From Candidatus Cloacimonadota bacterium (GTDB taxonomy: Bacteria; Cloacimonadota; Cloacimonadia; Cloacimonadales; JAJBBL01): a stretch of DNA of 64,000 nt. Positions 9,601 to 57,795 of the stretch are shown here, in pieces. Within the stretch, counting starts at the first letter, position 1. Every line of letters begins with the position of its first letter. The stretch lies in the NCBI GenBank assembly GCA_019429305.1, contig JAHYIR010000009.1, positions 1,837 to 65,836 on the forward strand. Direction: 5' to 3'. The position numbers and the translations under genes were made by a program. A model generated the notes under the pieces. That model saw only the letters and a list, made by a program, of their open reading frames with translations, was not told the origin of the DNA and did no database searches.

Positions 9601-10106
9601 ATGATGGAGATATTATTTTTCAGTATCACACTGTCTGGAACCAGAATCATACCCGTAATTATTCAACAACAGGTATTATGAACCACACCAGATTCGTAGG
9701 TTTACAGTATGCCTATGCTAATCATTATCCTCTTTCAGCTACGCCAATACAGGCAGGTTTAGCTATACGCTTTACAACTTCTGCACCAGACGAATATTAT
9801 TCTACAGATGATTTGATCAATCCCAATCTTGGATTAACTCTCTTCCAAAATTACCCGAATCCTTTCAACCCCGAAACAGTTATTGAGTTCTCTTTACCCA
9901 ATAGAAGCTTCGTTACTCTTGATGTTTACAACATCCTCGGGCAGAAAGTAAAAACTCTCGTTGATAGAGAATTAGATTTCGGACTACATAGATTTGTCTG
10001 GAATGGAACAGATCATTCAGGAAAAAGTGTAGGTAGTGGAGTCTATCTCTATAGGTTATCTACTCCGGATGAAACAGAAGTACGTCGTATGATCCTGATC
10101 AAGTAA
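6630..10106 (+). CDS. Peptidase C25 (gingipain-like) family protein with T9SS-type C-terminal domain; the catalytic His position is occupied by Trp
   Basis: Signal peptide is MLKHILMLLSVILVFSLSA. It aligns by eye with gingipain RgpB across the catalytic domain (YLLLIGG, EVMVGRFS, YINYRGWGDANGW versus ANYTGHGSETAW, SSFVCNTGDF versus FDVACVNGDF, ADPSL). The C-terminus is NYPNPFNPETVIEFSL...GVYLYRL...ILIK. Confidence 0.85.
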   Translation: MLKHILMLLSVILVFSLSAIHQDIIQTSQSSVNIQISTNREEINEETISHTVALLAEDAHIEINSMQIATYNSNGDLIERDSVIDSDRVRLINQFTMREMYGFTSAVELVKEESNFKSVIEELNYNIVGTGNRTIPEEISEAFYPVYKSLALNFDSSYLVNLPFKQPAMMIISHDSAQITNTLEPFIRWKRATGMEITVVNRTDIGANPTNNMIRNYVINYYQTTDNKPEYLLLIGGARTGASLPIPTFYTGAANNANDLPYGLIEGDDYFPEVMVGRFSVNNSYQLATIVNKTVAYEKEPFMDETEWMERAIVIAGNYASTLPIPITPVLMSKWLVELLYESGYTEVDTVFWYPGSSSLTQPVIDAVNRSGQYINYRGWGDANGWHYPLFHINHLANTNAGRKSPVVSSFVCNTGDFINSNVNPCFGEYWMTMGTPTTPNGAVGFVGPSDLHTSTEYNNAIASGYHWGIQREGIRSFGAAILRGKMEIYNGYPNNLDPGDWVDFYFRVYNTLADPSLNLWKLIPYHMNLTLPTQIDQGTNYLEFDAPNLTGGYVTITRDEENFITHRIENDYAFIPLNPDEEGDIILTVTAKNYLPTIQTIEITSSNNITLLEYDFAGTAIYPGETITLNTTLKNYSNNNVADVSATLSSNFEDFITITEETVNYGDISAGGTASGSFEFEIAGNCPHHTVLQFTLNISPTGDVAKLQVLVVGIHIEVDGFVINSPNSILDPGETATIDVTISNHGISDLLNLSTVIEPYTDAVYISEDMVNIGDISAGESSTFSFEVVVHDDTYVGREAYFKLNFFDADGRFTYAFINTTIGEVTNTAPTGPCYYGYYAFDSYDTDYSQAPLYNWVDIDPDNGGPGTAVWLPDDGTMTMDMPFTFRYYGIDYNEISICSNGWITFIPTEEINFRNWPIPSAIVPKGIIAPYWDDLKGLDEVDNELRVAYYHDEINNRMIISWLDAYSVANLTPSGLEKIQVILEPKADDDGDIIFQYHTVWNQNHTRNYSTTGIMNHTRFVGLQYAYANHYPLSATPIQAGLAIRFTTSAPDEYYSTDDLINPNLGLTLFQNYPNPFNPETVIEFSLPNRSFVTLDVYNILGQKVKTLVDRELDFGLHRFVWNGTDHSGKSVGSGVYLYRLSTPDETEVRRMILIK

Positions 10107-21256: not shown

Positions 21257-24200
21257 TTACCTTAAGATTATCACTTTACCTAATTGTTCTGTTACTTTGT
21301 TTGTTACAAGATCTCGAGCTCGAATTCTATATAGGTAAGTATTATTAGCCAGTCGGGAGTTTTCTTGATCTCTACCATCCCAATATATTTGATTATAGCC
21401 CTTTACACCTTGTGCTGTTAGTGTTCTAATCCTTCTTCCAGTTATTGTATAGATCGTAATTGTGATCTGAGCATTTTCATTTAAGAGGAAGGTAAAATAG
21501 CCATCACTGCTCATCGGGTTTGGATAGGGTAGTAATTTTTCAATAACAATACTTTCCGTGACTCTGACAATGAAGTTAACTCTGGTAACCGCAGGATTAT
21601 TGTAGTTGTCAAAAACAATAAGTTGTAGATTATGTTCACCTTCTGCCAGGTTCAGTAATTGCCAAGTTAGAGTACCTGTTTGATATGAACCTACATCATA
21701 AATGAATCCTGAAGTAGCATCTATTGGTGAACTCTGATTATCAAAGAGAATAAGTATCTTATGCCCCAATTCACCAAGTATATTAATGCCACTATCGTCG
21801 TGAATTCTGGCATAAAGTATAGGATTGGGAGACACAATATCACCATTACGGAAATTGGGTGTATCGAGCCAAATAGTCACTTCTGGAGGAAGTGTGTCAG
21901 GAACAGCATTGGCATAGGGTATATTAGTCAGACGTTTTGGATAGTAGTAGTCAACGAAATCCTTTTTAGTGCCCGGATTAAAATAATAAGATACAATCCT
22001 TCCTCTATTACCGGGTAAAATATCACCTGGGATCATAAAAGAGGAGTCATAACTTCCATTATTTAAATTACTCTGACCTCGGTAGTATATACTACCCCAT
22101 TGCGTATAGTCGAAATCGAGTTGGTCTGCTTGCCCGGTGTATTTTAGATCCTGCTCAGAACTATAAGCAATAATATCTATAATGCTATCAGTACCGGATT
22201 CGGAAAAAGAACCACTCAACTCGACTAGCTGATAAGCAAAGAGACTGTCGGGATTGTTATAAATGCTAATATTTTGTGTTCTTTGTGGAGTTACGATTGG
22301 TAACACCGGATCTCCCATATAGGTATAATATCTATGCTGTGACTCTGACAACGAGTTCTTAGCTTGCATTAAAGCAATTCCAGGCGATTCATAGTTGTTG
22401 ATAATACTGACCATGAAGTTCCGCATAAGACGACGATTAGGTCCCGGTGATGTATCAAAGTTAGCGGCTAAAGATGCTATAGAGCCACCATTGGGATGCC
22501 AAAGTAGATTCTCACTTAAACTACTTAACCCGAAATAATCATACTTACCGACGCTGCATGATGCTGAAATAAAAAGAGGTAAATGATCTCTGTTTTTTAA
22601 TAACTGTATATCTATCATTCTAAAATAACTCTCATCCCCTAACATATGAGGAGCACCATGACCAATATAAAGCCAGATCAATCTACCTTCATTTATAGTT
22701 GATATCATCTCTTCACGTGCCAAAGGTTTGTTACCAAAAGGATCAAAAGGATAGTTAAATCCAAAAATCTTATCAACTATCACACTGGGTGACATTAGTT
22801 GGGATATCTCTTGGATATCCAAAGAATGTCCGATCTCTTCGTTGTTTGTACCTTTATATTCATCATCAGCGAAAAATAGAGGAGTGTTTTTCCATAATCC
22901 CGGTGTAGGATTAATCCAGTAGTTGAAGATCTTATCAAACACGATATCACTTTGATTGATATTTTCAACAGTTATTCTACCTATGCCTATATCGGGAAGA
23001 TTGTTCCCTGATTGATCAACAAAGAAATCTTCACTGGTTTCAACTCCTTTATGAAAGAGGATCAGTTTATTCTTCTCGGCAGCAAGTCCGGAAAAATTAC
23101 GCCAATCAACAGATCCCGAACCAATAAGGGTTATATACTTCAAAGAGGTAGTTCCTTCAATAATCGGATAATTATAAAAGGCATGACGTATAAAAAGTCG
23201 AATGGCATTGGGGTCAGGCATGCCACTGTTGAACTGATTAAAAATCTCTTGTTGATCAACTATCTTGGTAGCAATTCCCCTCTCATTCTGATATTTAAGA
23301 GCGAGTTGATCTGCATATCCTCTAAAAATCTCCGGAGTTATGATTATTGCTTCAACAGGGAAGTTCTGGATAGTTAGATCAACAGGGAAATCTTCTTGAA
23401 AGTTACCTACAGTTAAGTATTCACCGTCTCTGACAACAGCATATTGAGTATCTTGACCACCGAGACCTGTAATTGAAAAATCATATCCTGTTCCGGGTTG
23501 TGGTGAATCAACTTCTAACTGAGAGACTTGGTGGAAATCAACAATCTCAAACGCTCGTAGATTCTGTATATTGCTACCTGTTAGATTATACTGCACAGTT
23601 TGATTAAAATCCTCTTCATTGATAGAAAAAAGTAGTTGGCTATTCCCTTTGGAGAGCAATCTATGATAATAAACAGTAAAATAATCAAAATAGATCGAGC
23701 TGCTACCGGTACGATGGATAGTCAAAACAGCATTATTAGTTCCGTTTTGTAGAAAGTTACTATCTCTCTGAAAAGTTCGGTAACCGCTACCAACCCAGCT
23801 CTGGCGATTAATAATCGTATTGCCATTGATATTCATCGATAGACTGTGCGTGCTTGAATCGCCAGCTTGTACTGCTATAATAAATTTCTGTTCTTTACTT
23901 GTATCGACATTATTAAGGTTGAAGCTATAATTATGATTTGTGTCGGTAACACCGGTCAATAATGAAGTAAACCATGTAAATCCTCTCTGGTCTCTTCTGA
24001 CGCTTTCAGATTCATAATGGAAGAATTGCGGGCTACTAGTTCTTGTTATTGATGCTTGCCCATGATTCTGCAGTGGCATTCTTTTTGGTGGTTCAGAAAA
24101 ATCACCTCCAAATGTTAACCAATATACAGTCCTTCCTGAGTAGGGGTTAAAATAATGATTTACTGTTGATGATAAATACTCGTTTTGGGCAAATCCATCT

Positions 24201-25108
24201 CTTTTATGGGCATAAAAGATTATTCTATCTCCCTGATCGAATTGTCCGTTATCTTCACCTATGATCAACAATGGTATCTCTTCAAAAGGATAACCGCTGT
24301 TACTCAACAGGTTAGGAAGTAATTTCCCGCCTGTAGAAAAAATACGAATATTGCGAGGATCAATAATGTCTAAAGGGAGTGCAGAAAGCTGCTGATAGGT
24401 TAATTCATACATCCCGTTTTCAGATATCTCAAAACTATACCAAAATTCTGACTGATAAAATGGTGCATGATTAATATCTATCTGTTCTCTTACCTGCCAA
24501 TACCTTGCAGTGTCATAATTCAGAATATTGAAACTCAGATCGATATCATCAATCTGATTATTACGCTGAGAAGTATTTCCGGTAATTCTAATACCGATAG
24601 TGATTTTTTCGCTTACTGTTAATCGCCCCTGTTCATAGTTATAAGAAAATGGATTGATAGTTACTGGGATGACAGCATTATAACGAAAGTATGTCGGCTC
24701 CCCCTGATTCAAGATCTGCTCAGAACGGTGACGATATTTTGCTTCATCTATAGAATAAACATACTCACTGACTTGCTCCCCTTGAATAACTTCTGGGATC
24801 GGCATTAATGGTTTAGAGAGCCGATGCTCAACTCTTTCTTGATTCATTATTTGAAGGTTAATTACCCCATTTTCCGGTATTCCTATATATGTTGTTAAAT
24901 AAGGTAACATTGGAGCACCAGCATCATCGGAAAAATCTATCCCCGGAGAATTCAAATATATATACTCATCTAATTCTATGAATGAGTAATCACCTAGATT
25001 AAATTCTATGAGTAAATAATCGGAGGTTTCTGCAATGATATCTAGTTTTGCATAAAGTATTACATAGAATATCATCATAGTTATCAGAACCAATATCCTC
25101 TTCATCAA
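21257..25108 (-). CDS. Large C25-family cysteine peptidase with an intact His/Cys dyad and a FlgD-Ig/T9SS-like C-terminal domain; candidate PorU-type T9SS C-terminal signal peptidase
   Basis: Signal peptide is MMKRILVLITMMIFYVILYA. The C25 core is WLYIGHGAPHMLGDE (His codon 22658-22660) and LFISASCSVGKYD (Cys codon 22556-22558), 34 residues apart versus 33 in RgpB. The C-terminus is LLPYPNPMSSDGYFTFLL...NTYLYRI...VIILR. About 800 aa precede the catalytic core, as in PorU-like proteins. The PorU assignment is inference. Confidence 0.7.
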   Translation of the reverse strand: MMKRILVLITMMIFYVILYAKLDIIAETSDYLLIEFNLGDYSFIELDEYIYLNSPGIDFSDDAGAPMLPYLTTYIGIPENGVINLQIMNQERVEHRLSKPLMPIPEVIQGEQVSEYVYSIDEAKYRHRSEQILNQGEPTYFRYNAVIPVTINPFSYNYEQGRLTVSEKITIGIRITGNTSQRNNQIDDIDLSFNILNYDTARYWQVREQIDINHAPFYQSEFWYSFEISENGMYELTYQQLSALPLDIIDPRNIRIFSTGGKLLPNLLSNSGYPFEEIPLLIIGEDNGQFDQGDRIIFYAHKRDGFAQNEYLSSTVNHYFNPYSGRTVYWLTFGGDFSEPPKRMPLQNHGQASITRTSSPQFFHYESESVRRDQRGFTWFTSLLTGVTDTNHNYSFNLNNVDTSKEQKFIIAVQAGDSSTHSLSMNINGNTIINRQSWVGSGYRTFQRDSNFLQNGTNNAVLTIHRTGSSSIYFDYFTVYYHRLLSKGNSQLLFSINEEDFNQTVQYNLTGSNIQNLRAFEIVDFHQVSQLEVDSPQPGTGYDFSITGLGGQDTQYAVVRDGEYLTVGNFQEDFPVDLTIQNFPVEAIIITPEIFRGYADQLALKYQNERGIATKIVDQQEIFNQFNSGMPDPNAIRLFIRHAFYNYPIIEGTTSLKYITLIGSGSVDWRNFSGLAAEKNKLILFHKGVETSEDFFVDQSGNNLPDIGIGRITVENINQSDIVFDKIFNYWINPTPGLWKNTPLFFADDEYKGTNNEEIGHSLDIQEISQLMSPSVIVDKIFGFNYPFDPFGNKPLAREEMISTINEGRLIWLYIGHGAPHMLGDESYFRMIDIQLLKNRDHLPLFISASCSVGKYDYFGLSSLSENLLWHPNGGSIASLAANFDTSPGPNRRLMRNFMVSIINNYESPGIALMQAKNSLSESQHRYYTYMGDPVLPIVTPQRTQNISIYNNPDSLFAYQLVELSGSFSESGTDSIIDIIAYSSEQDLKYTGQADQLDFDYTQWGSIYYRGQSNLNNGSYDSSFMIPGDILPGNRGRIVSYYFNPGTKKDFVDYYYPKRLTNIPYANAVPDTLPPEVTIWLDTPNFRNGDIVSPNPILYARIHDDSGINILGELGHKILILFDNQSSPIDATSGFIYDVGSYQTGTLTWQLLNLAEGEHNLQLIVFDNYNNPAVTRVNFIVRVTESIVIEKLLPYPNPMSSDGYFTFLLNENAQITITIYTITGRRIRTLTAQGVKGYNQIYWDGRDQENSRLANNTYLYRIRARDLVTNKVTEQLGKVIILR

Positions 25109-48150: not shown

Positions 48151-48418
48151 TTAAGTAAACATTTGTTAGAGATATTATCCAGATTTCTTCTTAACCATCT
48201 TTCCATTAAACAACATGTCTCTACACTATCTGCATACTTTTATTTACCAATAAGCAGTCCTATAGTTGGAAGGGTGCCGACTATAGGGTTCCCTAATGGT
48301 TAGCCGGATAAATATTCAATAGATTTTCAGCAATGATCAAAGAGTGTAGCTCTTTTTTGATTTGACAATATCATGTTTCATTTTCTTAGGTATAATAAAT
48401 GTGTTGTAAGGAGTTTTT

Positions 48419-50062
48419 ATGAAAGCCAAAGGACTAATCACTTTCCTCTTTCTCTTCTACTTCACTATCGCTCTCTTTGGACAGATCATTAATAACGAGT
48501 TGTTACTGATAGAAGAGTCTGGTTTAGTAATGACTACTCAACAGATCGAGCCATTGTCCTTCTATGACAATAGATCTTCTGTGACCCGCTATCAAGAGGT
48601 ATCATTGCCAATAGAGTTAACAACACCCTCCGAAATCGTTGTCGGGGACAGATTAGTGCTTAATCTATTTAATGAAATCAATTATCCTGCAGTTATTGAT
48701 CATCTTGAACTCAACAGGTTAGGAACTTTTACGGTCAGAGCAAGGATCGAAGACTGCCAGATGGGTTATATCATTATATCTACTACAGAAGATAGAAGTT
48801 TAGCCATTATTTACATACCGGAAAGAAATGAATACTTCACGATCATTAGTGATCCCGTAACTCTTTCTCATTATCTGCTGGAGATCAATTTAGCAGAAGC
48901 AGATGAATTGGTTACGGCACCACCTGTTACCCCTCCACCTTTACAAGAGAGCAGCAGACATGAACAGGAACGGATCAGGAGATCTTTAGAAGAGGTTATT
49001 CTGACCGATCCGGCAACGATAGATGTAATGGTTGTTTATACACCAGCTGCTGCCAATTGGGCTAACACAAGCGGTGGAGGGATATATAATGTTATAAACG
49101 GCGCCATGCAAAACGGACAGATATCTTTAGATAATAGTAATACACTTATGAGTGTTGATCTTGTCTATGCAGCCGAGGTGGATTATCAAGAATCAGGATC
49201 CGCTTCAATTGACTTAATACGTTTAGCAGCATCGCCAGATTTTAACCCTTGGGGTGATTATGTGAATGGTTATTATATCCCCGGATATCTCGATGAAGTA
49301 CATATCTGGCGAGATATCTATGGGGCTGATTTAGTTGCTTTGTTCGCTTTAGTAGATGATGTAGGTGGTGTCGGTTTCCTTTTACAAGATAGATGGGGTT
49401 ATCCCGAGATAGGTTTCTCTTTGACTCGCGTGCAACAAGCATCGTGGACATATACCCATGTCCATGAAATGGGTCATAACATGGGTTTACATCATCATGC
49501 AGAGCAGAATTTTCAACCGGGTCCAACTGAATGGTTTAATTGGTCTGAAAACACTTGGTCTGCCGGCTGGAGGTGGACAGGTAATAACAACCAAAGATAT
49601 TGTTCTGTAATGACCTATACCAGCGGTTCCTATTTCCCCGATGGTTTAGATCATGCCAGAGTAGCTCATTTCTCTAATCCTTTGATCAATTATGAAGGAG
49701 TTCCTACTGGACATGCTACACTGGGCGATAATGCCCGCACTTTAAGAGAACTCAGGCATATAATCGCTGCCTATCGACCTTCAATGATGATAGAGATAGA
49801 TACACCAATAGTTTCCGTAGAGATTATTGATGGCTATATTCATCTAAATTGGGAAGCTGTTTCAGGGAGTAATTCCTATAAAATATATGCAACTGATAAT
49901 CCTTATCAGGAAGATTGGGGGAATGAGATAGCTATTGTCGGATCACCAGGTTATGTTGAAATAATATCTGAAGAGAGAAAATTCTACCGGGTGATCGCAT
50001 CTACTGAAGAAGCCCCTGTATTTGATCTTATTCCAGATAATACTCTATCAGGAGATAGATGA
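48419..50062 (+). CDS. Secreted metzincin zinc metalloprotease (reprolysin/M12B-like) with a C-terminal Fn3-like module
   Basis: AAGGAG RBS, signal peptide MKAKGLITFLFLFYFTIALFG, and an N-terminal pro-region. The zinc site is HEMGHNMGLHH (HExxHxxGxxH) with a downstream Met-turn candidate CSVMTY. The C-terminal module is 49799-50008, ending in KFYRVIASTE. Confidence 0.8.
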   Translation: MKAKGLITFLFLFYFTIALFGQIINNELLLIEESGLVMTTQQIEPLSFYDNRSSVTRYQEVSLPIELTTPSEIVVGDRLVLNLFNEINYPAVIDHLELNRLGTFTVRARIEDCQMGYIIISTTEDRSLAIIYIPERNEYFTIISDPVTLSHYLLEINLAEADELVTAPPVTPPPLQESSRHEQERIRRSLEEVILTDPATIDVMVVYTPAAANWANTSGGGIYNVINGAMQNGQISLDNSNTLMSVDLVYAAEVDYQESGSASIDLIRLAASPDFNPWGDYVNGYYIPGYLDEVHIWRDIYGADLVALFALVDDVGGVGFLLQDRWGYPEIGFSLTRVQQASWTYTHVHEMGHNMGLHHHAEQNFQPGPTEWFNWSENTWSAGWRWTGNNNQRYCSVMTYTSGSYFPDGLDHARVAHFSNPLINYEGVPTGHATLGDNARTLRELRHIIAAYRPSMMIEIDTPIVSVEIIDGYIHLNWEAVSGSNSYKIYATDNPYQEDWGNEIAIVGSPGYVEIISEERKFYRVIASTEEAPVFDLIPDNTLSGDR

Positions 50063-50115
50063 TAAAAAGAAAGAGATAGTTATAAAAAAAGCTTTGATAT
50101 ATTTTGGAGGTTAAA

Positions 50116-51474
50116 ATGAAATATTTAAAAATTATTGTTTTCTTGGTTTTTTTATTTTTCTGTTCCGGTCTCTTTGCTGTCTGGTCAAATATCAGGAATA
50201 GTTCATACACCTCTGATGGTGAGATTTTTTTTCAGTATGAGAGTACTCTTGATATTAGCTACGAACATCGGATATACTATTATCAGAATGATGAATGGTC
50301 TTATAACCTATTTGAGAATATTTTTGACACATCATTTCAAAGCTCAATCCCCTTTTCTAACGTTGAATCAGTACCTTTAAGTTTCCGGATAGAGAATGAC
50401 AGTGATATCTATATTATTCCCGGTTTTACTGCTCAGCAGCCAACATCCCTTACGCAAATGACCTCTTTGTCGGAATACGTTAGAGATACTGCTATTCCTG
50501 ATCATCTCAACATTGCCGGAGAAAAGATGCTTTTTTCCGATGATAGACTCTATTTTGCCCTAAACAATTTCGGTGGTGGTTTTCCGGTTAGTGGCGGTCT
50601 CTTTGGACCTTTTTACTCCTATACTATTAACCTTTGGCCTGCAGTAACAGGAACTCCCCCTTATGTATATACCTTGCTCCAAACTGTAAGTTTAGCACCA
50701 TATGTCAATCCCGGGCTGTTTAAAATTAATTCAGCAACAGAAGAAATGACTCAAATTGGTTCTATCACTACACAGGTGGATCAGAATACCAACACTCTTT
50801 ATCTCTCGTGCCTGATAAGCGACTTAATGAATGATCCTGACTTTGCTGCTGCTTACTCTCTCGATAATGGACTGATCATAACTGCTCTGACCCAGAAGAT
50901 CGAGGATTTTGGTGCTACTATTACTATCATGGATGAAGGTTATTACCACAATGTTTACCTGCAGGAGTTTATCCTCGATCCTTTTATCAATAATATTCCT
51001 CAAATAGACAATATCCAATATATACAAGATGGTGACACTTATCTATTCAGTCTAGATTACTCTGATGTTGATGGACATTTCCCAATTATCAGGGAGATAG
51101 AACTCGACACAGGAAATACCTACAATTTCTATCCCGCTTCTTTTGACTTTTCCCAAACGGTTTCCTTCACCAGTCAGTTCATAGATAACTGGAGTAGTGG
51201 AATTATCAGATTCAGTGATAACGGGACAGACATAATAGAATACACAATATCTCAAACTGTTCTGGCAGCACCTGTCGTTTCTGTTGAGATAGTTGGAAAT
51301 AATGTTATTTTGAGTTGGCTTCCGGTAGAGAATGCCAATAGCTATAAGGTCTATGCCACTATTGATATTAGTTTGGATGATTGGGGTGAACCGATAGCAA
51401 CAACAAATGAACTCCTGTTTTCAGAATCATTATCTGATATGAGATTCTACAGAGTTATTGCCACAACAGAATAG
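50116..51474 (+). CDS. Secreted protein of unknown function carrying the same C-terminal Fn3-like module
   Basis: ORF is 50104..51474. The ATG at 50116 follows GGAGG at 50106-50110 and gives MKYLKIIVFLVFLFFCSGLFA. No recognisable catalytic motif. The C-terminal module is 51265-51471, ending in RFYRVIATTE-stop. Confidence 0.7.
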   Translation: MKYLKIIVFLVFLFFCSGLFAVWSNIRNSSYTSDGEIFFQYESTLDISYEHRIYYYQNDEWSYNLFENIFDTSFQSSIPFSNVESVPLSFRIENDSDIYIIPGFTAQQPTSLTQMTSLSEYVRDTAIPDHLNIAGEKMLFSDDRLYFALNNFGGGFPVSGGLFGPFYSYTINLWPAVTGTPPYVYTLLQTVSLAPYVNPGLFKINSATEEMTQIGSITTQVDQNTNTLYLSCLISDLMNDPDFAAAYSLDNGLIITALTQKIEDFGATITIMDEGYYHNVYLQEFILDPFINNIPQIDNIQYIQDGDTYLFSLDYSDVDGHFPIIREIELDTGNTYNFYPASFDFSQTVSFTSQFIDNWSSGIIRFSDNGTDIIEYTISQTVLAAPVVSVEIVGNNVILSWLPVENANSYKVYATIDISLDDWGEPIATTNELLFSESLSDMRFYRVIATTE

Positions 51475-51566
51475 TACATTATTGATCTTTTTTTATAACT
51501 TGAACTCGTTGTTTACTCTAAGTAGTTTTAGTGCCGATAGTTAGTAAAAATAACCAAATTTATTGC

Positions 51567-51594
51567 TTGACTAAAAATAACACTCATATATAAG
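51567..51594 (+). promoter_or_regulatory. Sigma70-like promoter candidate (TTGACT, 16 nt spacer, TATAAG) for the S8 protease gene
   Basis: TTGACT at 51567-51572 and TATAAG at 51589-51594, about 40 nt upstream of the ATG at 51636. Pattern match only. Confidence 0.35.
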
Positions 51595-51635
51595 AATACA
51601 TGTAGAAATTTATTAAAATTTTAAGGAGTATAGAA

Positions 51636-54600
51636 ATGAGTTTTAAAGGAGATCTTATGAAAACCGTACTGTTAGTTTTTTTCTTAACCCTATTTTCGCT
51701 GACAATAAGCTGGGCTTATGAAGTTCAGTTTGGCGAGAGACCGGAAATAGATTTAACAAGAGTTTCCGATGATGCATTTCATCAAACCCATATCCTTATC
51801 CAATTCAGTTCGGATCTGACGGGTCATCTTGATAATAATCCGGTTAGATATGACAGGGATGGGTATGCCATATTTGACTTACCAGAAATTGACGAACTAA
51901 ATCGTTATTTCAGTGTTAAAGAGGTAAAACCTCTTTTTGACAGCCCTGCCTTAGATAATGAATACAAAGACCGTCACCGTGCCTGGGGCTTTCATCTCTG
52001 GTATGAGCTTTATTTTTCGGAGAAGCAGGACATAAGGGAAGCTGTTGCTGCCTATAAAGAATTGGAATTTATTGAAGTAGCTGAACCTGAATATAAGAAA
52101 GTAAGATATTTCGCTGAGGACAGAGATGATCCGACTTACCGTTGGACTCCCAATGACCCATATTTCTCTACCCAGTGGCATTACCATAATACAGGGCAGC
52201 AGAGTGGCACTCCCGGAGCCGATATCAAACTCGTGACAGCTTGGGATATTGAAAAGGGACATACTGCTGTTATTGTTGCCATCATTGACGGTGGTATTCA
52301 AACTAATCATCCCGATATTGCAGCTAATATGTGGAGTGGCATCGGATATAATTTTGTCGATAATAATACAACCATCACAGCTGATGATCATGGAACTCAC
52401 GTAGCAGGAACTGTATCTGCAGTTAATAATAATGGCGTAGGAGTAGCCGGAGTAGCTGGTGGTTCAGGTTCTGGAAATGGGGTGCGTTTGATGACCTGTC
52501 AGGTTTTCAGGGGTATATCCCAGGGTGGTTTCAGTACAGCTCCTGTATGGGCAGCTGATAATGGTGCTGCCATTTCCCAGAACAGTTGGGGATATCAAAA
52601 TTCAGGAGTTTATAATACACCTGATCTGAATGCTATTGATTATTTCAATGCTAATGGTGGTGGAACTGTTTTAAACGGCGGAATTACTATCTTTGCAGCC
52701 GGTAATGATGATGACAACGGTGCTTGGTATCCCGGTTACTATAGCGGAGCATTTTCCGTTGCTGCTACGACCAATACAGATACAAAAGCATATTATTCCA
52801 ACTATGGAACCTGGATAGATGTGTCAGCACCCGGTGGTGAAGTAATCAGTGTTGCAGCCCGAGGTGTAAGAAGCACAATAGCAGGGAGCAGTTATGCTTA
52901 TTATCAGGGAACATCGATGGCTTGTCCGCATGTATCAGGAGTTGCAGCACTCGTGGTTTCCTATGCTCATCGGAACGGATTTACTCTCAATAATTCTAAT
53001 ATCAAAAATATTTTACGTGATTCTACCGATAATCATTATGGGGTCAATCCCGGATATACTGGTCAGTTAGGAACCGGACGGCTCAATGCTCATGCTGCTT
53101 TAGTCGAAACAATGACTTATATTGGTTTAGGAGTTCCTAATCCCCAGAGTTTTACAGCTACATCAGCCGGTTTACATCAAATAAACCTTAACTGGGTCAA
53201 GAACACTGATAACAATAATGTTATGGTTGCTTGGTCTGCAACAGGAACTTTTGGTACTCCTGTTGATGGAACTGTATATTCTGCAGGAACAAATATTCCC
53301 GGTGGCGGAACGGTTTTATACAGAGGCAGTGCTACCTCCTACAATCATACTGGACTGAATTCGTGGACTACATATTACTACAGGGCTTTTTCTTATAATT
53401 CTTCTAATGAGTACTCTTCCGGACTGAATGCCCAGGCAACAACTCTTTATGAACCATTCACGCTACCCTTTTCCGAGAATTTTAATGCCTCAACTACACT
53501 ACCCGATTTTTGGCAGATCATAGATCATCAGGGTAACGGTCAGGTCTGGCAATTTGGTACAACTTCCGGTGGTTTGAGCGGTACTACAGGGAACTATGCT
53601 TATCTGAACAGTGATGCTTATGGCTCAGGCAATACCCAGAATGCCGACTTGGTTACTCCAACACTAGATTTGAGTAACAATTATAATGTTAATCTTTCCT
53701 TTACCCATTATTTCAGGCAGTATCAAAATGTTTCTACAGCAACTTTATCTTATAGTATCAATAATGGAACAACTTGGACAACTATTCAATCCTGGACATC
53801 AACTACAGGCAATCCAGTATATTTTAGCCAAACCATTCCTGCCTTGGAGGGACAATCACAGGTTAAATTCAAATGGAATTACACAGGTACTTGGGGTTAT
53901 TATTGGTGTGTAGATGATATCCTTATCACCGGTGATGAATATGTTTTATTACCAACTATAGATGTTACTCCGGTAAGTTTTTTCGAAGAATTGAATACCG
54001 GCGAATTCACTACAGAGCAAATGACGATCAGTAATGATGGAGAAGCTGATCTTGAATATAGTATCAGTGTTGTGGAAACACGAAGAGCTAATACTGATGA
54101 CAGCTTTATGCATATCGATGGTGCTGCTGATCAAACAACACGAGGAATTACAGAGATCCATTATGATAACGGTTATTCAGGTAACGGAGTCGGTGCCGGA
54201 GGAGCAGCTTATTGGATCTCAGCTGTCCGTTTTACTGCTGATGAATTAGCTGCCTATTATGGAGACTATCAAATTTTGGGCATTAAGTATCATATCCGAA
54301 CTTCTCAATTCACTAATGTGACAGTTAAGGTTTGGGAAGGTGGCAGTTCCGGTAATTCCGGAACTGAGATATATTCACAAGACGTAACATCGTCTGTAGT
54401 AATAAACGACTGGTCAACTCATATCCTGACAACACCGGTCTCATTGATTACCGGTAACGAATATTGGATAGGATATTCCATAAATGCAACAGGAGGCAGC
54501 CCGGCTAGTATTGACAGTGGTCCTTTAGTAGCAAACAAAGGGGGGTGGATCTATTGGAGTAATTCATGGACGCAGATCACTGCCTTTGGTTTCAATACAA

Positions 54601-57600
54601 ATTGGTGTATTCGCGGCTTGCTTTATGACTCTTCAGGTTCTTGGCTGTCGGTATCTCCGATAAGTGGAATAGTACAACCGGGTCAGAGTGAGATAGTTGA
54701 TGTCTCTTTTGTTTCTATAGGACTACCAGCCGGATCAGTGCACACAGCAGATATTGTCATTGCTAACAATGCCGGTGCTGATGTTGTTGTTCCAGCCACT
54801 CTTAGTATTTTTGGTATGGTACTGAACCCACCATCAAATCTGTCAGCAGTAGCCGGAGATGGTGTTGTGAATTTAAGCTGGGATGCACCGTTAGTAAGAT
54901 CATTACTTGGATATAATGTCTATCGCAATGGTGTGCAAATAAATCCTGAAATAGTCATCGGCACTGAGTATCCTGATAATACAGTTGTGAATGGAACGAC
55001 CTATTCGTATTATGTGACGGCAGTTTATACAGAAGGCGAGTCTGAAGCATCAAACATAGTACAGGCAACTCCTCTGGCAGCACCGATAAATCTATCTGCA
55101 GTACCGGGAGCTGGATCTGTCTTCCTGGATTGGGATGCACCTCCAATAAGAACATTGTTATCATACAATATTTATCGCAACGGATCATATATAAATAATG
55201 TCACAACTCCAGAGACGGAGTACACTGATAGCGGATTAGGGAATGGTGTCACTTACAGTTATTATGTAACCGCTGTTTATCAAACTCATGGCGAATCAGT
55301 TCCGTCCAATACTGTAGAAGTTACTACACTCCAAGGAACAGTAGCAGCACCGACATTTAATCCACCTCAACAAGCTGAACCGTTCTATCAGGAGTTTACC
55401 GTAACTATTTCATCAGCAACTCCGGCAGCTACTATCTGGTATAAAACGGCAGAGGGTAATGACTGGACTGCTGGGAACTCTGTTAATATAACTCAAAACA
55501 CTGAGATCTGGGCAATGGCAACGAGAAATAACTGGGCAGATTCAGAAATAAGTTATGCCAGTTATGAGCTGAAAGTAGTTACTCCGACCTTTGATCCGGT
55601 AGAACAAGGTACACCATTTGATGAGCCGATCGATCTGGAACTGATAACTACTACTTCAGGAGCAACAATACTTTATAGAATTATTAGTTCTGATGGGGTC
55701 AGAAGAGAAGAATGGCAGGAATATATCGATCCGATCTACCTGTTCTATAATTCATATATTGAATTGGAGACCAAAGCTATAAAAGCTGGTTGGTTAGAGA
55801 GTGATATAGCTTATGGTTACTTTGCAGTCAATCCGGGTCAGGCAGGTATTATGATCAGTAATCTGGAGCAAATATACTCAAGTGAACCTTTAATTGTCTC
55901 AGTAACTACAAATCCAACGGGACTTGATTATATTGTGACATATAATGGTTCACCTGAACTACCTGTTAATGTCGGAAACTATTTAGTAGAGGTTACAATT
56001 GACGATCCATATTATGAAGGAACCGAACAAGCACTACTCCAGATCTTCCCGTTCGATATTACTGTCACAGCCAATCCGCAAAGTAAAACTTATGGAGAAG
56101 CGGATCCCCTCTTCACCTATAGTGTTGATCCGGTACTCTTTGCCGGAGATGGATTTACCGGCACTCTGACCAGACAGCTTGGAGAAAATGTAGGTCAGTA
56201 TGAGATATTGCAGGGCACTCTCACTGCCGGGGATAATTATAGAATAACTTACAACTCAGATTATCTGACTATATCACCGGCTACCGCTGCTATCGAGATC
56301 TATGATCTCAGTCAGGTCTATGGTTCTGTAGATGATGTGACAGTAGTCACAACACCATTGGGACTAAATTATACTGTCACTTATGACGGCTCTCCTACCC
56401 TTCCTGTTAATGTTGGAACTTATGAGGTCGAGGTGGTCATCAATGAATTGAACTATGTAGGATCAGAAACAGCTTGGTTAGTTATAGATCCTTTAGCAAT
56501 AACCGTAACAGCCGACCCTCAAACCAAGATATATGGAGAAGCTGATCCGGTATTAACCTATGGAGTTAATCCGGCACTAATTGTTGGTGATAGCTTTACC
56601 GGTTCTTTAACCCGACAATTAGGTGAAGATGTTGGTCAATATGAGATTCTGTTGGGTACTCTGACTGCCGGAGATAATTACACTATATCTTATGTCTCCG
56701 ATTATCTGACCATATCACCGGCAACTGCCACAATCGAGATCTATGATCTCAGTCAGATCTATGGTTCGGTAGGAGATGTAACAGTTGTTACAACACCATT
56801 GGGACTAAATTATACTGTCACTTATGATGGATCACCTACCCTTCCTGTTAATGTTGGAACTTATGAGGTCGAGGTGGTCATTAATGAATTGAACTATGTA
56901 GGATCAGAAACAGCTTGGTTAGTTATAGATCCTTTAGCAATAACCGTAACAGCCGATCCTCAAACCAAAATATATGGAGAAGCTGATCCGGAGTTTACTT
57001 ATCAATATAGTCCATTATTAGTTGAAGGAGATACCATTGTTGGTGAATTATCGAGAGCGATCGGTGAAGATGTCGGTCAGTATGAGATCCTGCAAGGAAC
57101 TCTGACGGCAGGAGCAAACTATACAATTATCTATCAATCAGACTATCTGACAATTTCACCAATGGCAATAACGGTAACAGCCGATCCTCAGAGCAAGGTT
57201 TATGGCGAAGAAGATCCTCCACTTACTTATACTGTAGAACCTGAATTAATTGCTGGAGATCAGTTCAGTGGTAGTCTTGTAAGAGAAGTCGGCGAAGAGG
57301 TCGGTGAATATCAAATTCTCCAGGGAACTTTATCAGCCGGAGATAATTACTCGATAAACTATATACCAAATGTATTCGAAATTTTATCTATGGTCGATCT
57401 GTCAGCTCCCGTAGTAACTATCTCAATAGAAAGCAATACAGTGATTCTGAGTTGGGAACATATTACCGGAGCGAATTCTTACAAGATATATTCAACAGGA
57501 GATCCCTATGTTCCAGAGGAAGAATGGGATTTAGCAGGTACTACTGCCAATAATGAGTTTACAGAACCCCTCACTACAAGGAAATTCTATCGAGTTATAG

Positions 57601-57623
57601 CATCGACAGAGATGCCGGAATAG
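51636..57623 (+). CDS. Giant secreted S8 subtilisin-like serine protease with Fn3, MAM-like, chitobiase-C-like and MBG repeat domains and the C-terminal Fn3-like module
   Basis: The start is the ATG at 51636 or the ATG at 51657 (MKTVLLVFF...); both have AGGAG-like RBSs. The catalytic triad contexts are VAIIDGG (Asp), DDHGTHVAGT (His) and GTSMACPHVSG (Ser). Downstream come Fn3 units (LSWDAP...YNVYRNG...YSYYVTAVY), about 7 MBG-like units (ITVTADPQTKIYGEADP..TY...G.L.R..GE.VG.Y.I..GTL.AG.NY.I.Y....L.I.P) and a terminal module at 57399-57611 (KFYRVIASTE). Confidence 0.9.
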   Translation: MSFKGDLMKTVLLVFFLTLFSLTISWAYEVQFGERPEIDLTRVSDDAFHQTHILIQFSSDLTGHLDNNPVRYDRDGYAIFDLPEIDELNRYFSVKEVKPLFDSPALDNEYKDRHRAWGFHLWYELYFSEKQDIREAVAAYKELEFIEVAEPEYKKVRYFAEDRDDPTYRWTPNDPYFSTQWHYHNTGQQSGTPGADIKLVTAWDIEKGHTAVIVAIIDGGIQTNHPDIAANMWSGIGYNFVDNNTTITADDHGTHVAGTVSAVNNNGVGVAGVAGGSGSGNGVRLMTCQVFRGISQGGFSTAPVWAADNGAAISQNSWGYQNSGVYNTPDLNAIDYFNANGGGTVLNGGITIFAAGNDDDNGAWYPGYYSGAFSVAATTNTDTKAYYSNYGTWIDVSAPGGEVISVAARGVRSTIAGSSYAYYQGTSMACPHVSGVAALVVSYAHRNGFTLNNSNIKNILRDSTDNHYGVNPGYTGQLGTGRLNAHAALVETMTYIGLGVPNPQSFTATSAGLHQINLNWVKNTDNNNVMVAWSATGTFGTPVDGTVYSAGTNIPGGGTVLYRGSATSYNHTGLNSWTTYYYRAFSYNSSNEYSSGLNAQATTLYEPFTLPFSENFNASTTLPDFWQIIDHQGNGQVWQFGTTSGGLSGTTGNYAYLNSDAYGSGNTQNADLVTPTLDLSNNYNVNLSFTHYFRQYQNVSTATLSYSINNGTTWTTIQSWTSTTGNPVYFSQTIPALEGQSQVKFKWNYTGTWGYYWCVDDILITGDEYVLLPTIDVTPVSFFEELNTGEFTTEQMTISNDGEADLEYSISVVETRRANTDDSFMHIDGAADQTTRGITEIHYDNGYSGNGVGAGGAAYWISAVRFTADELAAYYGDYQILGIKYHIRTSQFTNVTVKVWEGGSSGNSGTEIYSQDVTSSVVINDWSTHILTTPVSLITGNEYWIGYSINATGGSPASIDSGPLVANKGGWIYWSNSWTQITAFGFNTNWCIRGLLYDSSGSWLSVSPISGIVQPGQSEIVDVSFVSIGLPAGSVHTADIVIANNAGADVVVPATLSIFGMVLNPPSNLSAVAGDGVVNLSWDAPLVRSLLGYNVYRNGVQINPEIVIGTEYPDNTVVNGTTYSYYVTAVYTEGESEASNIVQATPLAAPINLSAVPGAGSVFLDWDAPPIRTLLSYNIYRNGSYINNVTTPETEYTDSGLGNGVTYSYYVTAVYQTHGESVPSNTVEVTTLQGTVAAPTFNPPQQAEPFYQEFTVTISSATPAATIWYKTAEGNDWTAGNSVNITQNTEIWAMATRNNWADSEISYASYELKVVTPTFDPVEQGTPFDEPIDLELITTTSGATILYRIISSDGVRREEWQEYIDPIYLFYNSYIELETKAIKAGWLESDIAYGYFAVNPGQAGIMISNLEQIYSSEPLIVSVTTNPTGLDYIVTYNGSPELPVNVGNYLVEVTIDDPYYEGTEQALLQIFPFDITVTANPQSKTYGEADPLFTYSVDPVLFAGDGFTGTLTRQLGENVGQYEILQGTLTAGDNYRITYNSDYLTISPATAAIEIYDLSQVYGSVDDVTVVTTPLGLNYTVTYDGSPTLPVNVGTYEVEVVINELNYVGSETAWLVIDPLAITVTADPQTKIYGEADPVLTYGVNPALIVGDSFTGSLTRQLGEDVGQYEILLGTLTAGDNYTISYVSDYLTISPATATIEIYDLSQIYGSVGDVTVVTTPLGLNYTVTYDGSPTLPVNVGTYEVEVVINELNYVGSETAWLVIDPLAITVTADPQTKIYGEADPEFTYQYSPLLVEGDTIVGELSRAIGEDVGQYEILQGTLTAGANYTIIYQSDYLTISPMAITVTADPQSKVYGEEDPPLTYTVEPELIAGDQFSGSLVREVGEEVGEYQILQGTLSAGDNYSINYIPNVFEILSMVDLSAPVVTISIESNTVILSWEHITGANSYKIYSTGDPYVPEEEWDLAGTTANNEFTEPLTTRKFYRVIASTEMPE
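55836..57390 (+). repeat. Coding tandem array of paired MBG-like modules (441-nt period)
   Basis: Three (A+B) units plus one extra B unit. The units starting at 56259 and 56700 are near-identical at the DNA level for about 290 nt. The outer units are more diverged (about 75% by eye). Confidence 0.8.
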
Positions 57624-57661
57624 GGCTCTTAGCTTATCTAATAAGAAAATGATATTTCTTT

Positions 57662-57690
57662 AAAGGGCGATGTATTATCGCCCTTTATTT
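57662..57690 (+). terminator. Rho-independent terminator after the S8 protease gene
   Basis: AAAGGGCGAT-gtatt-ATCGCCCTTT (core stem 57665-57671 / 57677-57683) is followed by a T-rich run and lies 39 nt after the stop. Confidence 0.75.
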
Positions 57691-57795
57691 CTATATTTAT
57701 CAATCATGCTTTGTATTGACAATTATGAAGTGGTTTAATTATTTGAAATGTTATGAAATATTTAGCATATCATGATCTGGTAAGGGATTTTTAAA

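What the first reader, a model, noticed from the sequence alone, without database searches (positions are those of the whole stretch)
48419..57623. Three consecutive secreted proteins share a distinct C-terminal module ending in FYRVIA(S/T)TE, different from the T9SS domain used elsewhere in the window
The metzincin, the 456-aa orphan and the 1995-aa S8 protease each end in a similar module of about 70 aa:
- 49799-50008: PIVSVEIIDGYIHLNWEAVSGSNSYKIYATDNPYQEDWGNEIAIVGSPGYVEIISEERKFYRVIASTE
- 51265-51471: PVVSVEIVGNNVILSWLPVENANSYKVYATIDISLDDWGEPIATTNELLFSESLSDMRFYRVIATTE
- 57399-57611: PVVTISIESNTVILSWEHITGANSYKIYSTGDPYVPEEEWDLAGTTANNEFTEPLTTRKFYRVIASTE

The shared pattern is (I/L)SW/NW ... (A/S)NSYK(I/V)Y ... 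DW ... (K/R)FYRVIA(S/T)TE. It looks Fn3-like, but it always sits at the extreme C-terminus: 0, 3 and 18 residues follow the TE.

By contrast, the four secreted proteins at 1.2-10.1 kb and 21.3-25.1 kb end in an NYPNP-type domain (NYPNPFNP in the three cargo proteins, PYPNP in the PorU-like one). Two mutually exclusive C-terminal modules on exported hydrolases suggest two sorting, anchoring or maturation routes. I do not recognise the second one as a named sorting signal.
Basis: seen in the sequence. Interest (0 to 1): 0.65.

Follow-up and report, generated by a model that had tools for sequence, protein, structure and literature searches.

The report
Fn3-derived C-terminal module replacing T9SS tail
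Three neighbouring exported proteins of an uncultured Cloacimonadota bacterium end in an undescribed, shortened fibronectin-III-like domain that always sits at the very end of exported proteins and takes the exact place of the type IX secretion tail in related proteins, so it is probably a new sorting or anchoring tag.

Summary
The metzincin (48419-50062), the 456-aa orphan (50104-51474) and the 1995-aa S8 protease (51636-57623) each end in a ~70-aa module finishing (K/R)FYRVIA(S/T)TE.

What it is:
- It is homologous to bacterial Fn3 (hhalign 99.1%). Its confident AlphaFold model has six strands and stops after strand F, so the G strand is missing.
- It is unrelated to the T9SS type A CTD (hhalign 1.5%) and matches no Pfam or NCBIfam model.

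Distribution:
- In 41 distinct C-termini from 44 metagenome loci, and in about 30 database proteins, the module ends 2-42 residues before the stop codon and is never internal. Generic Fn3 hits lie that close to the end only 3.8% of the time.
- Hosts carry signal peptides and are typical T9SS-type cargo: C25, C10, S8 and M12 peptidases, and GLUG, LamG or CBM giants.
- No ORF carries both the module and a CTD.
- Among 14 orphan homologues, five end in the module and eight in a type A CTD, joined at the same alignment column. The module clade is nested within the CTD clade.
- All named carriers are Cloacimonadota. The window also encodes PorU.

Most likely it is a lineage-specific C-terminal sorting or anchoring domain used as an alternative to the T9SS CTD. 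That function is inferred, not shown.

The parts
48419..50062 (+). Exported M12/reprolysin-like metzincin (547 aa) with an HEMGHNMGLHH zinc motif and an N-terminal signal peptide. It carries the C-terminal module.
   Evidence: ORF. Pfam Reprolysin_3/5 and NCBIfam Mep72-like. The orthologue P0149 (L003, syntenic) also ends in the module.
49799..50008 (+). Module copy 1: a six-stranded Fn3-like domain ending KFYRVIASTE.
   Evidence: HMM score 130 bits. AF2 pLDDT 90-91 with six strands.
50009..50059 (+). 17-residue tail after module 1 (EAPVFDLIPDNTLSGDR), predicted to be coil rather than a G strand.
   Evidence: In the AF2 model that includes the tail, residues 73-91 are coil at pLDDT about 62.
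50104..51474 (+). 456-aa orphan with a signal peptide (the NCBI call K0B81_05505 starts at 50116 and gives 452 aa). It belongs to a Cloacimonadota-only family with no Pfam or PDB relative. Its homologues end either in the module or in a T9SS type A CTD.
51265..51471 (+). Module copy 2, ending RFYRVIATTE directly at the stop codon.
   Evidence: HMM score 126 bits, alignment.
51636..57623 (+). 1995-aa exported S8 subtilase. Domains: Peptidase_S8_N, S8, two complete internal Fn3 domains, and MBG_2/MBG_3 repeats. It carries the module at its end.
   Evidence: Identical to P0078.
57399..57611 (+). Module copy 3, ending KFYRVIASTE followed by MPE.
   Evidence: HMM score 115 bits.
3950..4195 (+). T9SS type A CTD of the 1027-aa protein (context and contrast).
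   Evidence: PF18962 33.4 bits and TIGR04183 31.6 bits against a cut-off of 23.
6360..6593 (+). T9SS type A CTD of the M14 carboxypeptidase (context and contrast).
9852..10094 (+). T9SS type A CTD of the C25 peptidase (context and contrast).
21257..25108 (-). PorU, the T9SS sortase. It shows that the organism has a type A T9SS pathway.
   Evidence: NF033707 scores 634 bits against a cut-off of 420.

Best explanation
The module is a Cloacimonadota-specific C-terminal domain derived from a bacterial Fn3 domain. It has lost the last (G) strand and is kept only as the terminal cassette of Sec-exported proteins.

Proposed mechanism:
1. The signal peptide takes the protein to the periplasm.
2. The six-stranded domain has a 3+3 sandwich whose last strand is the near-invariant (K/R)(K/R)FYRVIA. 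It is followed by nothing or by a short, non-hydrophobic tail that often ends in basic residues.
3. This domain is recognised in place of a T9SS type A CTD and decides how the cargo crosses or is held at the outer membrane.
4. Most probably it acts as a further class of T9SS-linked C-terminal signal with its own carrier and destination. This would parallel type A (PorV/PorU) and type B (PorP-like carriers).

Shown here: the fold and its Fn3 ancestry, the strict terminal position, the signal peptides, the diversity of T9SS-type cargo, mutual exclusivity with the CTD, exact replacement of the CTD in orthologues, and coexistence with PorU and type A cargo in the same genome.

Inferred: recognition, translocation and final destination.
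For: - Position: 41 distinct metagenome C-termini have 2-42 residues (median 16) after the FYRVIA alanine. All family-level hits in two protein-database searches are terminal. Only 3.8% of 629 generic Fn3 hits are.
- A distinct subfamily: members score 40-130 bits per domain, generic Fn3 repeats at most about 30 bits.
- Shuffled onto unrelated cargo: M12, S8, C25 with propeptide, C10 with Spi inhibitor, LamG, NIDO, GLUG giants, a GEVED/CARDB/CBM6 giant, and small 170-180-aa proteins. Most of the full-length hosts (about 30 of 35) show an evident signal peptide.
- Exchange with the CTD: of 14 orphan homologues, five end in the module, eight in a T9SS type A CTD and one in a divergent truncated Fn3. 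All are joined at the same alignment column. The module clade is nested within CTD-bearing sequences.
- Exclusivity and neighbourhood: 0 of 53 module ORFs carry a CTD and 0 of 17 CTD ORFs carry the module. The two gene types sit side by side in at least 8 loci, and paralogous GLUG proteins carry either ending.
- The same genome encodes PorU and three type A cargo proteins.
- Precedent: T9SS already uses non-homologous CTD classes A, B and C, and the class decides the carrier and the fate (PMC10202324, PMC10994853). C-terminal extension beyond the last CTD strand is tolerated (PMC11285876).
Against: - There is no sequence or motif similarity to any T9SS CTD class.
- Type A CTDs need an intact seven-strand sandwich and their last strand (PMC11285876), whereas this domain lacks a last strand.
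- No conserved carrier-like neighbour gene, such as a PorP/SprF- or PorV-like barrel, was found next to module genes.
- Family size and taxonomic range are only partly sampled. Single-domain members scoring below about 98 bits were hidden under multi-Fn3 proteins in the exhaustive search.
- Tails of 16-42 residues in about half of the members could in principle supply a G strand. AF2 did not predict one in the single case modelled.
- There are no localisation data of any kind.
Confidence: 0.5

Rival explanations
1. It is an ordinary Fn3 accessory domain, acting as a spacer or as a substrate- or protein-binding module, that happens to be last in these proteins. It has no role in sorting. Its terminal position is inherited with the cassette because a G-strand-less Fn3 can only be terminal.
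For: It is clearly homologous to bacterial Fn3 (hhalign 99.1%; PDB 3mpc/5g56 at E 4e-7; Foldseek). The conserved residues are largely Fn3 core positions: the B-strand Trp, the C-strand Tyr and the F-strand tyrosine corner. Fn3 modules are common in secreted hydrolases.
Against: This does not explain why it takes the exact place of a T9SS CTD in orthologues. It also does not explain why it never co-occurs with a CTD, or why it is never internal although generic Fn3 domains are internal 96% of the time. It leaves the 40-60% identity kept across unrelated cargo unexplained. Large signal-peptide proteins such as a C25 gingipain-like peptidase would be left without any outer-membrane export signal.
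Confidence: 0.22
2. It is a docking or assembly module independent of T9SS recognition. The open F-strand edge of the incomplete sandwich accepts a beta-strand from a surface scaffold or from another subunit. This would resemble dockerin-cohesin binding or donor-strand complementation, and would tether enzymes in a cell-surface complex.
For: The six-strand model ends on strand F, and no G strand is possible in the 17 of 41 members with 9 or fewer residues after the motif. Other Cloacimonadota put C-terminal dockerins on the same enzyme classes (S8, C25, GH18), together with a CTD-anchored scaffoldin (PMC8542988). Module genes cluster in tandem: three in the window, and pairs in L012, L022, L025, L028/29, L036, L037 and L043. 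A minimal 170-180-aa protein made of a signal peptide, a short repeat and the module lies beside YadA_head/S74 fibre genes.
Against: No partner has been identified and there is no conserved neighbour. The route across the outer membrane is left unexplained. Strand complementation is pure inference from a monomer model.
Confidence: 0.18
3. It is a C-terminal pro-domain removed on maturation, like the PPC pre-peptidase C-terminal domain or protease P-domains. It would aid folding or keep the proteases latent.
For: In the window two of the three carriers are peptidases, and elsewhere C25, C10 and S8 peptidases carry it. Like PPC, it is a small beta-sandwich at the C-terminus of secreted peptidases.
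Against: Many carriers are not peptidases: the orphan, LamG, NIDO, GLUG and CBM giants, and the 170-aa proteins. There is no Pfam PPC (PF04151) match at E<=10. The C25 and C10 carriers already have their own N-terminal pro- or inhibitor domains.
Confidence: 0.07
4. It is an artefact: truncated or pseudogenised genes, or assembly errors, that cut a longer protein after an internal Fn3 domain.
For: Several database hits are short fragments from contig ends.
Against: The fragments are cut at the N-terminus, not the C-terminus. Every copy is followed by an in-frame stop inside the contig. The same ending recurs in 41 distinct sequences from independent metagenomes and in NCBI MAG annotations. The intergenic gaps in the window (41 nt after the metzincin stop, 161 nt after the orphan stop and 172 nt after the S8 stop) are too short to hold a further C-terminal domain of about 75-90 residues.
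Confidence: 0.02

Closest known systems
T9SS type A C-terminal domain (PF18962 / TIGR04183, Por_Secre_tail)
   Same: Both are small beta-sandwiches of about 70-90 aa at the extreme C-terminus of signal-peptide-bearing cargo of the same kinds (C25, C10, S8, metallopeptidases, giant adhesin-like proteins). Both are shuffled between unrelated proteins. The module occupies the identical junction in orthologues and occurs in the same genomes and gene clusters. Its last strand is preceded by basic residues, and extra residues after the last strand are tolerated.
   Different: There is no detectable homology (hhalign 1.5%, with no Pfam or NCBIfam hit). The PNPF, D and E motifs are absent. The module has six strands rather than seven. 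It is derived from Fn3. Dependence on the T9SS, PorV or PorU is untested.
Bacterial Fn3 domains of the 'W..V.GA.SY.VY ... YYY.V.A' type (for example C. thermocellum CtXyl5A Fn3, PDB 3mpc/5g56)
   Same: Homologous by profile (99.1%), by PDB hmmsearch (E 4e-7) and by fold (TM about 0.75). They share the core Trp, Tyr and tyrosine-corner residues.
   Different: The module ends after strand F, with no FG loop or G strand. It is always terminal. It forms a tight subfamily (40-130 bits against 30 or less for generic repeats) with its own DDPY..DW loop and (K/R)FYRVIAS(T)(E/D) ending. Pfam's fn3 model does not detect the isolated module at E<=10.
T9SS type B (TIGR04131 / CHU_C) and type C (ChiA-like) CTDs
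   Same: They set the precedent that T9SS cargo can use non-homologous C-terminal domain classes, and that the class determines the carrier protein and final destination (PMC10202324, PMC10994853, PMC9143113).
   Different: The module matches none of their models. No PorP/SprF-like gene lies next to module genes.
C-terminal dockerins on Cloacimonadota (Ca. Stygibacter) enzymes
   Same: Same phylum and same enzyme classes (S8, C25). Both are terminal modules on signal-peptide-bearing enzymes proposed to tether them in a surface complex (PMC8542988).
   Different: The fold differs: dockerins have calcium-binding EF-hand-like repeats, the module is a beta-sandwich. No cohesin-like partner is known for the module.
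PPC, the bacterial pre-peptidase C-terminal domain (PF04151)
   Same: A small beta-sandwich at the C-terminus of secreted peptidases.
   Different: There is no sequence match. The module is also found on many non-peptidases.

Membership tests
Fibronectin type III superfamily | Profile-level sequence homology to Fn3 domains | tested here: met
   hhalign against 29 bacterial Fn3 repeats gives Prob 99.1%, E 7e-19. PDB hmmsearch finds 3mpc at E 3.8e-7. Note that Pfam PF00041 itself gives no hit on the isolated module at E<=10.
Fibronectin type III superfamily | Seven-strand sandwich (ABE / C'CFG) | tested here: not met
   AF2 models at pLDDT about 90 have six strands and end on F. The 17-residue tail is predicted as coil. 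17 of 41 members have 9 or fewer residues after the F strand. The module is therefore a truncated derivative, not a canonical Fn3.
Fibronectin type III superfamily | Overall fold similarity | tested here: met
   The top 50 Foldseek PDB hits are mostly Fn3 domains. The best are 5g56, 7jgu and 3mpc, with query-normalised TM of 0.71-0.76.
T9SS type A CTD (PF18962 / TIGR04183) | Match to the family profile and its conserved motifs | tested here: not met
   No hit at E<=10 in Pfam or NCBIfam. hhalign against 12 Cloacimonadota CTDs gives Prob 1.5%. The window's own CTDs do pass the cut-offs.
T9SS type A CTD (PF18962 / TIGR04183) | Extreme C-terminal position on Sec-exported cargo | tested here: met
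T9SS type A CTD (PF18962 / TIGR04183) | T9SS-dependent export and removal by PorU | not testable with these tools
   This needs genetics or proteomics. Only the coexistence of PorU in the same window is shown.
T9SS type B CTD (TIGR04131 / PF13585) | Profile match | tested here: not met
   No CHU_C or TIGR04131 hit at E<=10.
T9SS type B CTD (TIGR04131 / PF13585) | Cognate PorP/SprF-like gene nearby | tested here: inconclusive
   Clustering of neighbours across 48 loci found no recurrent outer-membrane-protein-like neighbour. The only recurrent one is a 220-aa duplicated protein of unknown family in 6 loci. The flanks are short and a partner may be encoded elsewhere.
T9SS type C CTD (ChiA-like) | Profile match | tested here: inconclusive
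   No NCBIfam family matched the module at E<=10. I could not verify that a type C model is in the library, and no ChiA sequence was available for a direct comparison.
Sortase/exosortase-type tripartite signals (LPXTG, PEP-CTERM and similar) | Short motif, then a hydrophobic transmembrane helix, then a basic tail | tested here: not met
   The longest hydrophobic run in any tail is 6 residues. There are no NCBIfam sorting-signal hits.
Dockerin | Duplicated calcium-binding loop-helix motif (PF00404) | tested here: not met
   No Pfam hit. The model is all-beta.
PPC pre-peptidase C-terminal domain (PF04151) | Profile match | tested here: not met
   No Pfam hit at E<=10.

The most novel reading that the evidence does not exclude
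Cloacimonadota use a previously unknown class of C-terminal export or anchoring signal. It is an Fn3-derived six-stranded domain whose exposed last strand, (K/R)(K/R)FYRVIA, is read by the T9SS or by a dedicated carrier or receptor, possibly through beta-strand complementation. This would give a second destination for cargo, parallel to the type A CTD/PorU route. The class would have arisen by recruiting a common extracellular domain and deleting its last strand.
Probability: 0.35. Interest if true: 0.8.

Novelty: new variant of a known kind. Interest (0 to 1): 0.62.

Why it matters
C-terminal sorting domains are how genomes are mined for secreted and surface proteins. T9SS cargo prediction relies entirely on the type A, B and C models.

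If this module is a sorting or anchoring tag, then a whole set of large peptidases and adhesin-like proteins is currently invisible to secretome prediction. Cloacimonadota are abundant protein and amino-acid fermenters in anaerobic digesters and anoxic sediments, so this set matters.

It would also show that a secretion or anchoring signal can evolve by truncating an ordinary Fn3 domain. The natural CTD-to-module swap in one orthologous family gives a matched pair for experiments on what the envelope machinery recognises.

Even if it is only a binding domain, it deserves its own family model, because current Pfam and NCBIfam libraries miss it.

Tried and rejected
- A word-indexed search with only the three window modules found one fragment. 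It needed the wider alignment A4.
- The exhaustive representative search was swamped by multi-Fn3 giants. Its whole-protein ranking is misleading, and only per-domain rescoring separated true members. Members scoring below about 98 bits could not be seen.
A4 worked.
A per-genome census of module against CTD was therefore not possible.
- P0136 could not be located on a contig.
- The orphan body has no Pfam, NCBIfam or PDB relative.
- Four literature searches found no description of this module.
- Rejected, tripartite sortase-type signal: the tails have no transmembrane-like run.
- Rejected, remnant of an 'Fn3 + CTD' architecture after CTD loss: CTD-bearing orthologues have the CTD directly at the junction with no Fn3, and none of the 17 CTD-bearing ORFs contains the module.
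- Rejected, recent duplication or gene conversion among the three neighbours: they are only 42-44% identical, and each is closer to its own orthologues.
Full report
**1. The observation**

The three ORFs are as described:
- 48419-50062: 547 aa, Reprolysin-like M12 metzincin with HEMGHNMGLHH.
- 50104-51474: 456 aa, no Pfam or NCBIfam family.
- 51636-57623: 1995 aa, with Peptidase_S8_N, S8, two complete Fn3 domains and MBG repeats.

Each begins with a Sec-type signal peptide. Each ends in a ~70-aa module closing with (K/R)FYRVIA(S/T)TE. The copies are 42-44% identical and share 21 invariant columns.

An HMM built from them finds only these three copies in the six-frame translation of the window, at 115-130 bits. 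The S8 protease's own internal Fn3 domains score about 1 bit or less.

The contrast class is also real. Three proteins at 1.1-10.1 kb pass TIGR04183 (T9SS type A CTD). The gene at 21257-25108(-) is the T9SS sortase PorU, scoring 634 bits against a cut-off of 420.

**2. What the module is**

The isolated modules match nothing in Pfam or NCBIfam at E<=10, apart from one meaningless GH85_C hit at E 0.01.

AlphaFold2 gives a confident model (pLDDT 90.7) with six beta-strands. A second run used a 26-sequence alignment and included the metzincin's 17-residue tail. It gave the same six strands, with the tail as coil at pLDDT about 62.

Evidence for Fn3 ancestry:
- Foldseek against the PDB returns mostly Fn3 domains (5g56, 7jgu, 3mpc; query-normalised TM 0.71-0.76). 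No T9SS CTD appears in the top 50.
- Profile-profile comparison with ordinary bacterial Fn3 repeats gives Prob 99.1%, E 7e-19. The alignment stops at the F strand, while the Fn3 template continues for about 22 more columns covering the FG loop and G strand.
- Against an alignment of 12 Cloacimonadota type A CTDs the probability is 1.5%.
- A PDB sequence search finds the C. thermocellum Fn3 (3mpc/5g56) at E 4e-7.

So the module is an Fn3 derivative that ends after strand F. It is not a divergent T9SS CTD.

**3. Is the terminal position a rule?**

The exhaustive search of 1.84 billion representatives returned 7866 hits, ranked by summed score, so multi-Fn3 giants dominate the list. Re-scoring domain by domain gives a bimodal picture:
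- Five proteins have a single 97-127-bit domain, each 3-22 residues from the C-terminus: P0001, P0078 (the window's S8), P0124, P0136 and P0149.
- Everything else scores about 30 bits or less. These are ordinary internal repeats followed by a G strand.

A word-indexed search with a wider alignment added 22 proteins, mostly N-truncated fragments from contig ends. Nearly all are terminal (two odd cases, P0158 and P0167). A subgroup ends ...KKFYRVIA plus two residues.

A metagenome scan gave 44 loci. Six-frame HMM scanning found 53 ORFs (41 distinct C-termini) with the module at 40 bits or more. In all of them, 2-42 residues (median 16) separate the FYRVIA alanine from an in-frame stop inside the contig. 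The only internal hits are generic Fn3 repeats scoring about 41 bits or less (L045, L044).

As a baseline, only 24 of 629 generic Fn3 hits (3.8%) lie within 45 residues of a C-terminus.

The tails have no hydrophobic run longer than 6 residues, which rules out sortase- or exosortase-type signals. Long tails usually end in K or R.

**4. Who carries it**

Full-length hosts range from 170 to more than 3400 aa. Most of them (about 30 of 35) show an evident signal peptide. Host bodies are unrelated to each other:
- M12 metzincin.
- S8 subtilases.
- A C25 gingipain-like peptidase with its propeptide.
- A C10 peptidase with a Spi inhibitor domain.
- LamG, NIDO, and InlB-B/CarboxypepD_reg proteins.
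- GLUG-repeat giants.
- A GEVED/CARDB/CBM6 giant.
- Small proteins made of a signal peptide, three SxNYxL repeats and the module.

These are the protein classes that carry T9SS CTDs in Bacteroidota. That statement rests on established knowledge of gingipains, PrtT-type C10 peptidases and similar proteins, not on a test here.

All hits that a source names are Cloacimonadota: Ca. Cloacimonetes, Cloacimonadaceae and Ca. Syntrophosphaera. The window itself is NCBI MAG K0B81 (P0173 = K0B81_05505). A fourth carrier, P0152 = K0B81_05560, lies on the next contig of the same MAG.

**5. Relation to the T9SS CTD**

This is the key result.
- The orphan has 14 homologues. Five (60-100% identical) end in the module. 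Eight (39-59% identical) end in a type A CTD, and several are annotated as such or carry PF18962. One ends in a more divergent, also truncated, Fn3-like domain.
- In the alignment all of these endings start at the same column, right after the conserved ...IRFSDNGxDxIE.
- A neighbour-joining tree of the body places the module-bearing proteins as one clade nested among CTD-bearing ones, with a CTD-bearing outgroup. The CTD is therefore ancestral and was replaced once. This is a distance tree without support values.
- Across all loci no ORF has both endings (53 against 17).
- CTD genes and module genes sit next to each other in at least eight loci.
- Paralogous GLUG proteins carry either ending.
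- The module is therefore not a remnant of an 'Fn3 + CTD' architecture. The two endings coexist in one cell.

**6. Context in the window**

L003 is syntenic with the window: MoxR, FG-GAP/ASPIC, metzincin with module, ApbE, GCHY-1, M16. It lacks the orphan and the S8 gene. The slot between the FG-GAP gene and ApbE is therefore variable.

Tandem module-bearing genes recur elsewhere, in L012, L022, L025, L028/29, L036, L037 and L043.

No neighbour family is shared across loci, with one exception. It is an unannotated, internally duplicated protein of about 220 aa with a signal peptide. It lies directly downstream of module-bearing giant genes in six loci.

**7. Interpretation**

A conserved cassette has been shuffled onto many unrelated exported proteins. 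It is obligatorily terminal, exclusive with the T9SS tail and interchangeable with it at the same junction, in an organism that has PorU. This behaves like a sorting or anchoring domain.

The literature gives the framework:
- T9SS already uses non-homologous CTD classes A, B and C (PMC10202324).
- The class selects the carrier and the destination: PorV/PorU for A, PorP-like proteins for B (PMC10994853, PMC9143113).
- Extensions beyond the last CTD strand are tolerated (PMC11285876).
- In another Cloacimonadota genus the same enzyme classes carry C-terminal dockerins (PMC8542988). Alternative terminal targeting modules on these enzymes therefore have precedent in the phylum.

I commit to 'alternative C-terminal sorting/anchoring domain, most probably T9SS-linked with a distinct fate' at about 0.5. 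Rivals:

| Rival | Confidence |
|---|---|
| Plain Fn3 accessory domain | about 0.22 |
| T9SS-independent docking module using the open F-strand edge | about 0.18 |
| Cleaved pro-domain | about 0.07 |
| Artefact | about 0.02 |

Recognition, translocation and destination are all inferred.

**8. Novelty**

No Pfam or NCBIfam model detects the module, and four literature searches found no description of it. It is a new domain subfamily: truncated Fn3, strictly C-terminal, and so far found only in Cloacimonadota. Its function most resembles known C-terminal beta-sandwich sorting domains, so I rate it 'new variant of a known kind'.

**9. Limits**

- The family's full size and taxonomic range are unknown.
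- A per-genome census was not possible.
- Two fold libraries were unavailable.
- Whether tails of 16-42 residues can form a G strand was modelled for one protein only.

Noticed in passing
L023 10418-11119 (also L021, L022, L024, L025, L046): A signal-peptide-bearing protein of about 220-233 aa with an internal duplication: two units of about 100 aa with the motif SEPSEIVGYVAYDC...NNFIALP...W.P..Q.W. It lies directly downstream of module-bearing giant genes in six loci and has no Pfam or NCBIfam match. It is a candidate partner, but it is absent from the window.
   Followed up: partly
L006 1464-8259 (also L002, L005): Two fibre-like proteins with YadA_head repeats and a Peptidase_S74 (endosialidase intramolecular chaperone) domain (1202 and 865 aa). 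They lie directly upstream of a minimal 177-aa protein made of a signal peptide, three SxNYxL repeats and the module. P0152 of the window's own MAG is the same kind of small protein.
   Followed up: partly
P0185 (orphan homologue, 467 aa): This homologue ends in a different, more divergent Fn3-like domain that also stops just after the F strand (...IFYKVKAVSGNRVRQD, 19.7 bits on the module HMM). It branches apart from the module clade. Truncated terminal Fn3 domains may have been recruited more than once, or the family may be wider than the HMM sees.
   Followed up: partly
window 45385-58788 compared with L003: The slot between the FG-GAP/ASPIC gene and ApbE is variable. The window holds the metzincin, the orphan and the S8 gene. 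L003 holds OsmC, the metzincin and two minus-strand genes of unknown function.
   Followed up: partly
window 20283-21230 (-): The gene adjacent to PorU is a CDF cation-efflux transporter (TIGR01297, 229 bits), not a PorV-like T9SS component.
   Followed up: yes
window 51636-57623, residues about 1500-1915: The S8 protease carries a long array of MBG_2/MBG_3 domains with near-identical repeat units. One example is the duplicated stretch ...ATIEIYDLSQ(V/I)YGSV.DVTVVTTPLGLNYTVTYDGSPTLPVNVGTYEVEVVINELNYVGSETAWLVIDPLAITVTADPQTKIYGEADP.... This suggests recent internal duplication.
   Followed up: no
window 48419-48490: The metzincin signal peptide ends ...TIALFG|QII. If cleaved there, the mature protein would start with Gln. 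This recalls the pyroglutamate 'Q-rule' reported for Bacteroidota signal-peptidase I substrates (from memory, not tested).
   Followed up: no
window 45385-48150: A 921-aa FG-GAP/ASPIC (UnbV) repeat protein with an N-terminal hydrophobic segment lies directly upstream of the three module genes and is conserved there in L003. It carries neither the module nor a CTD.
   Followed up: no
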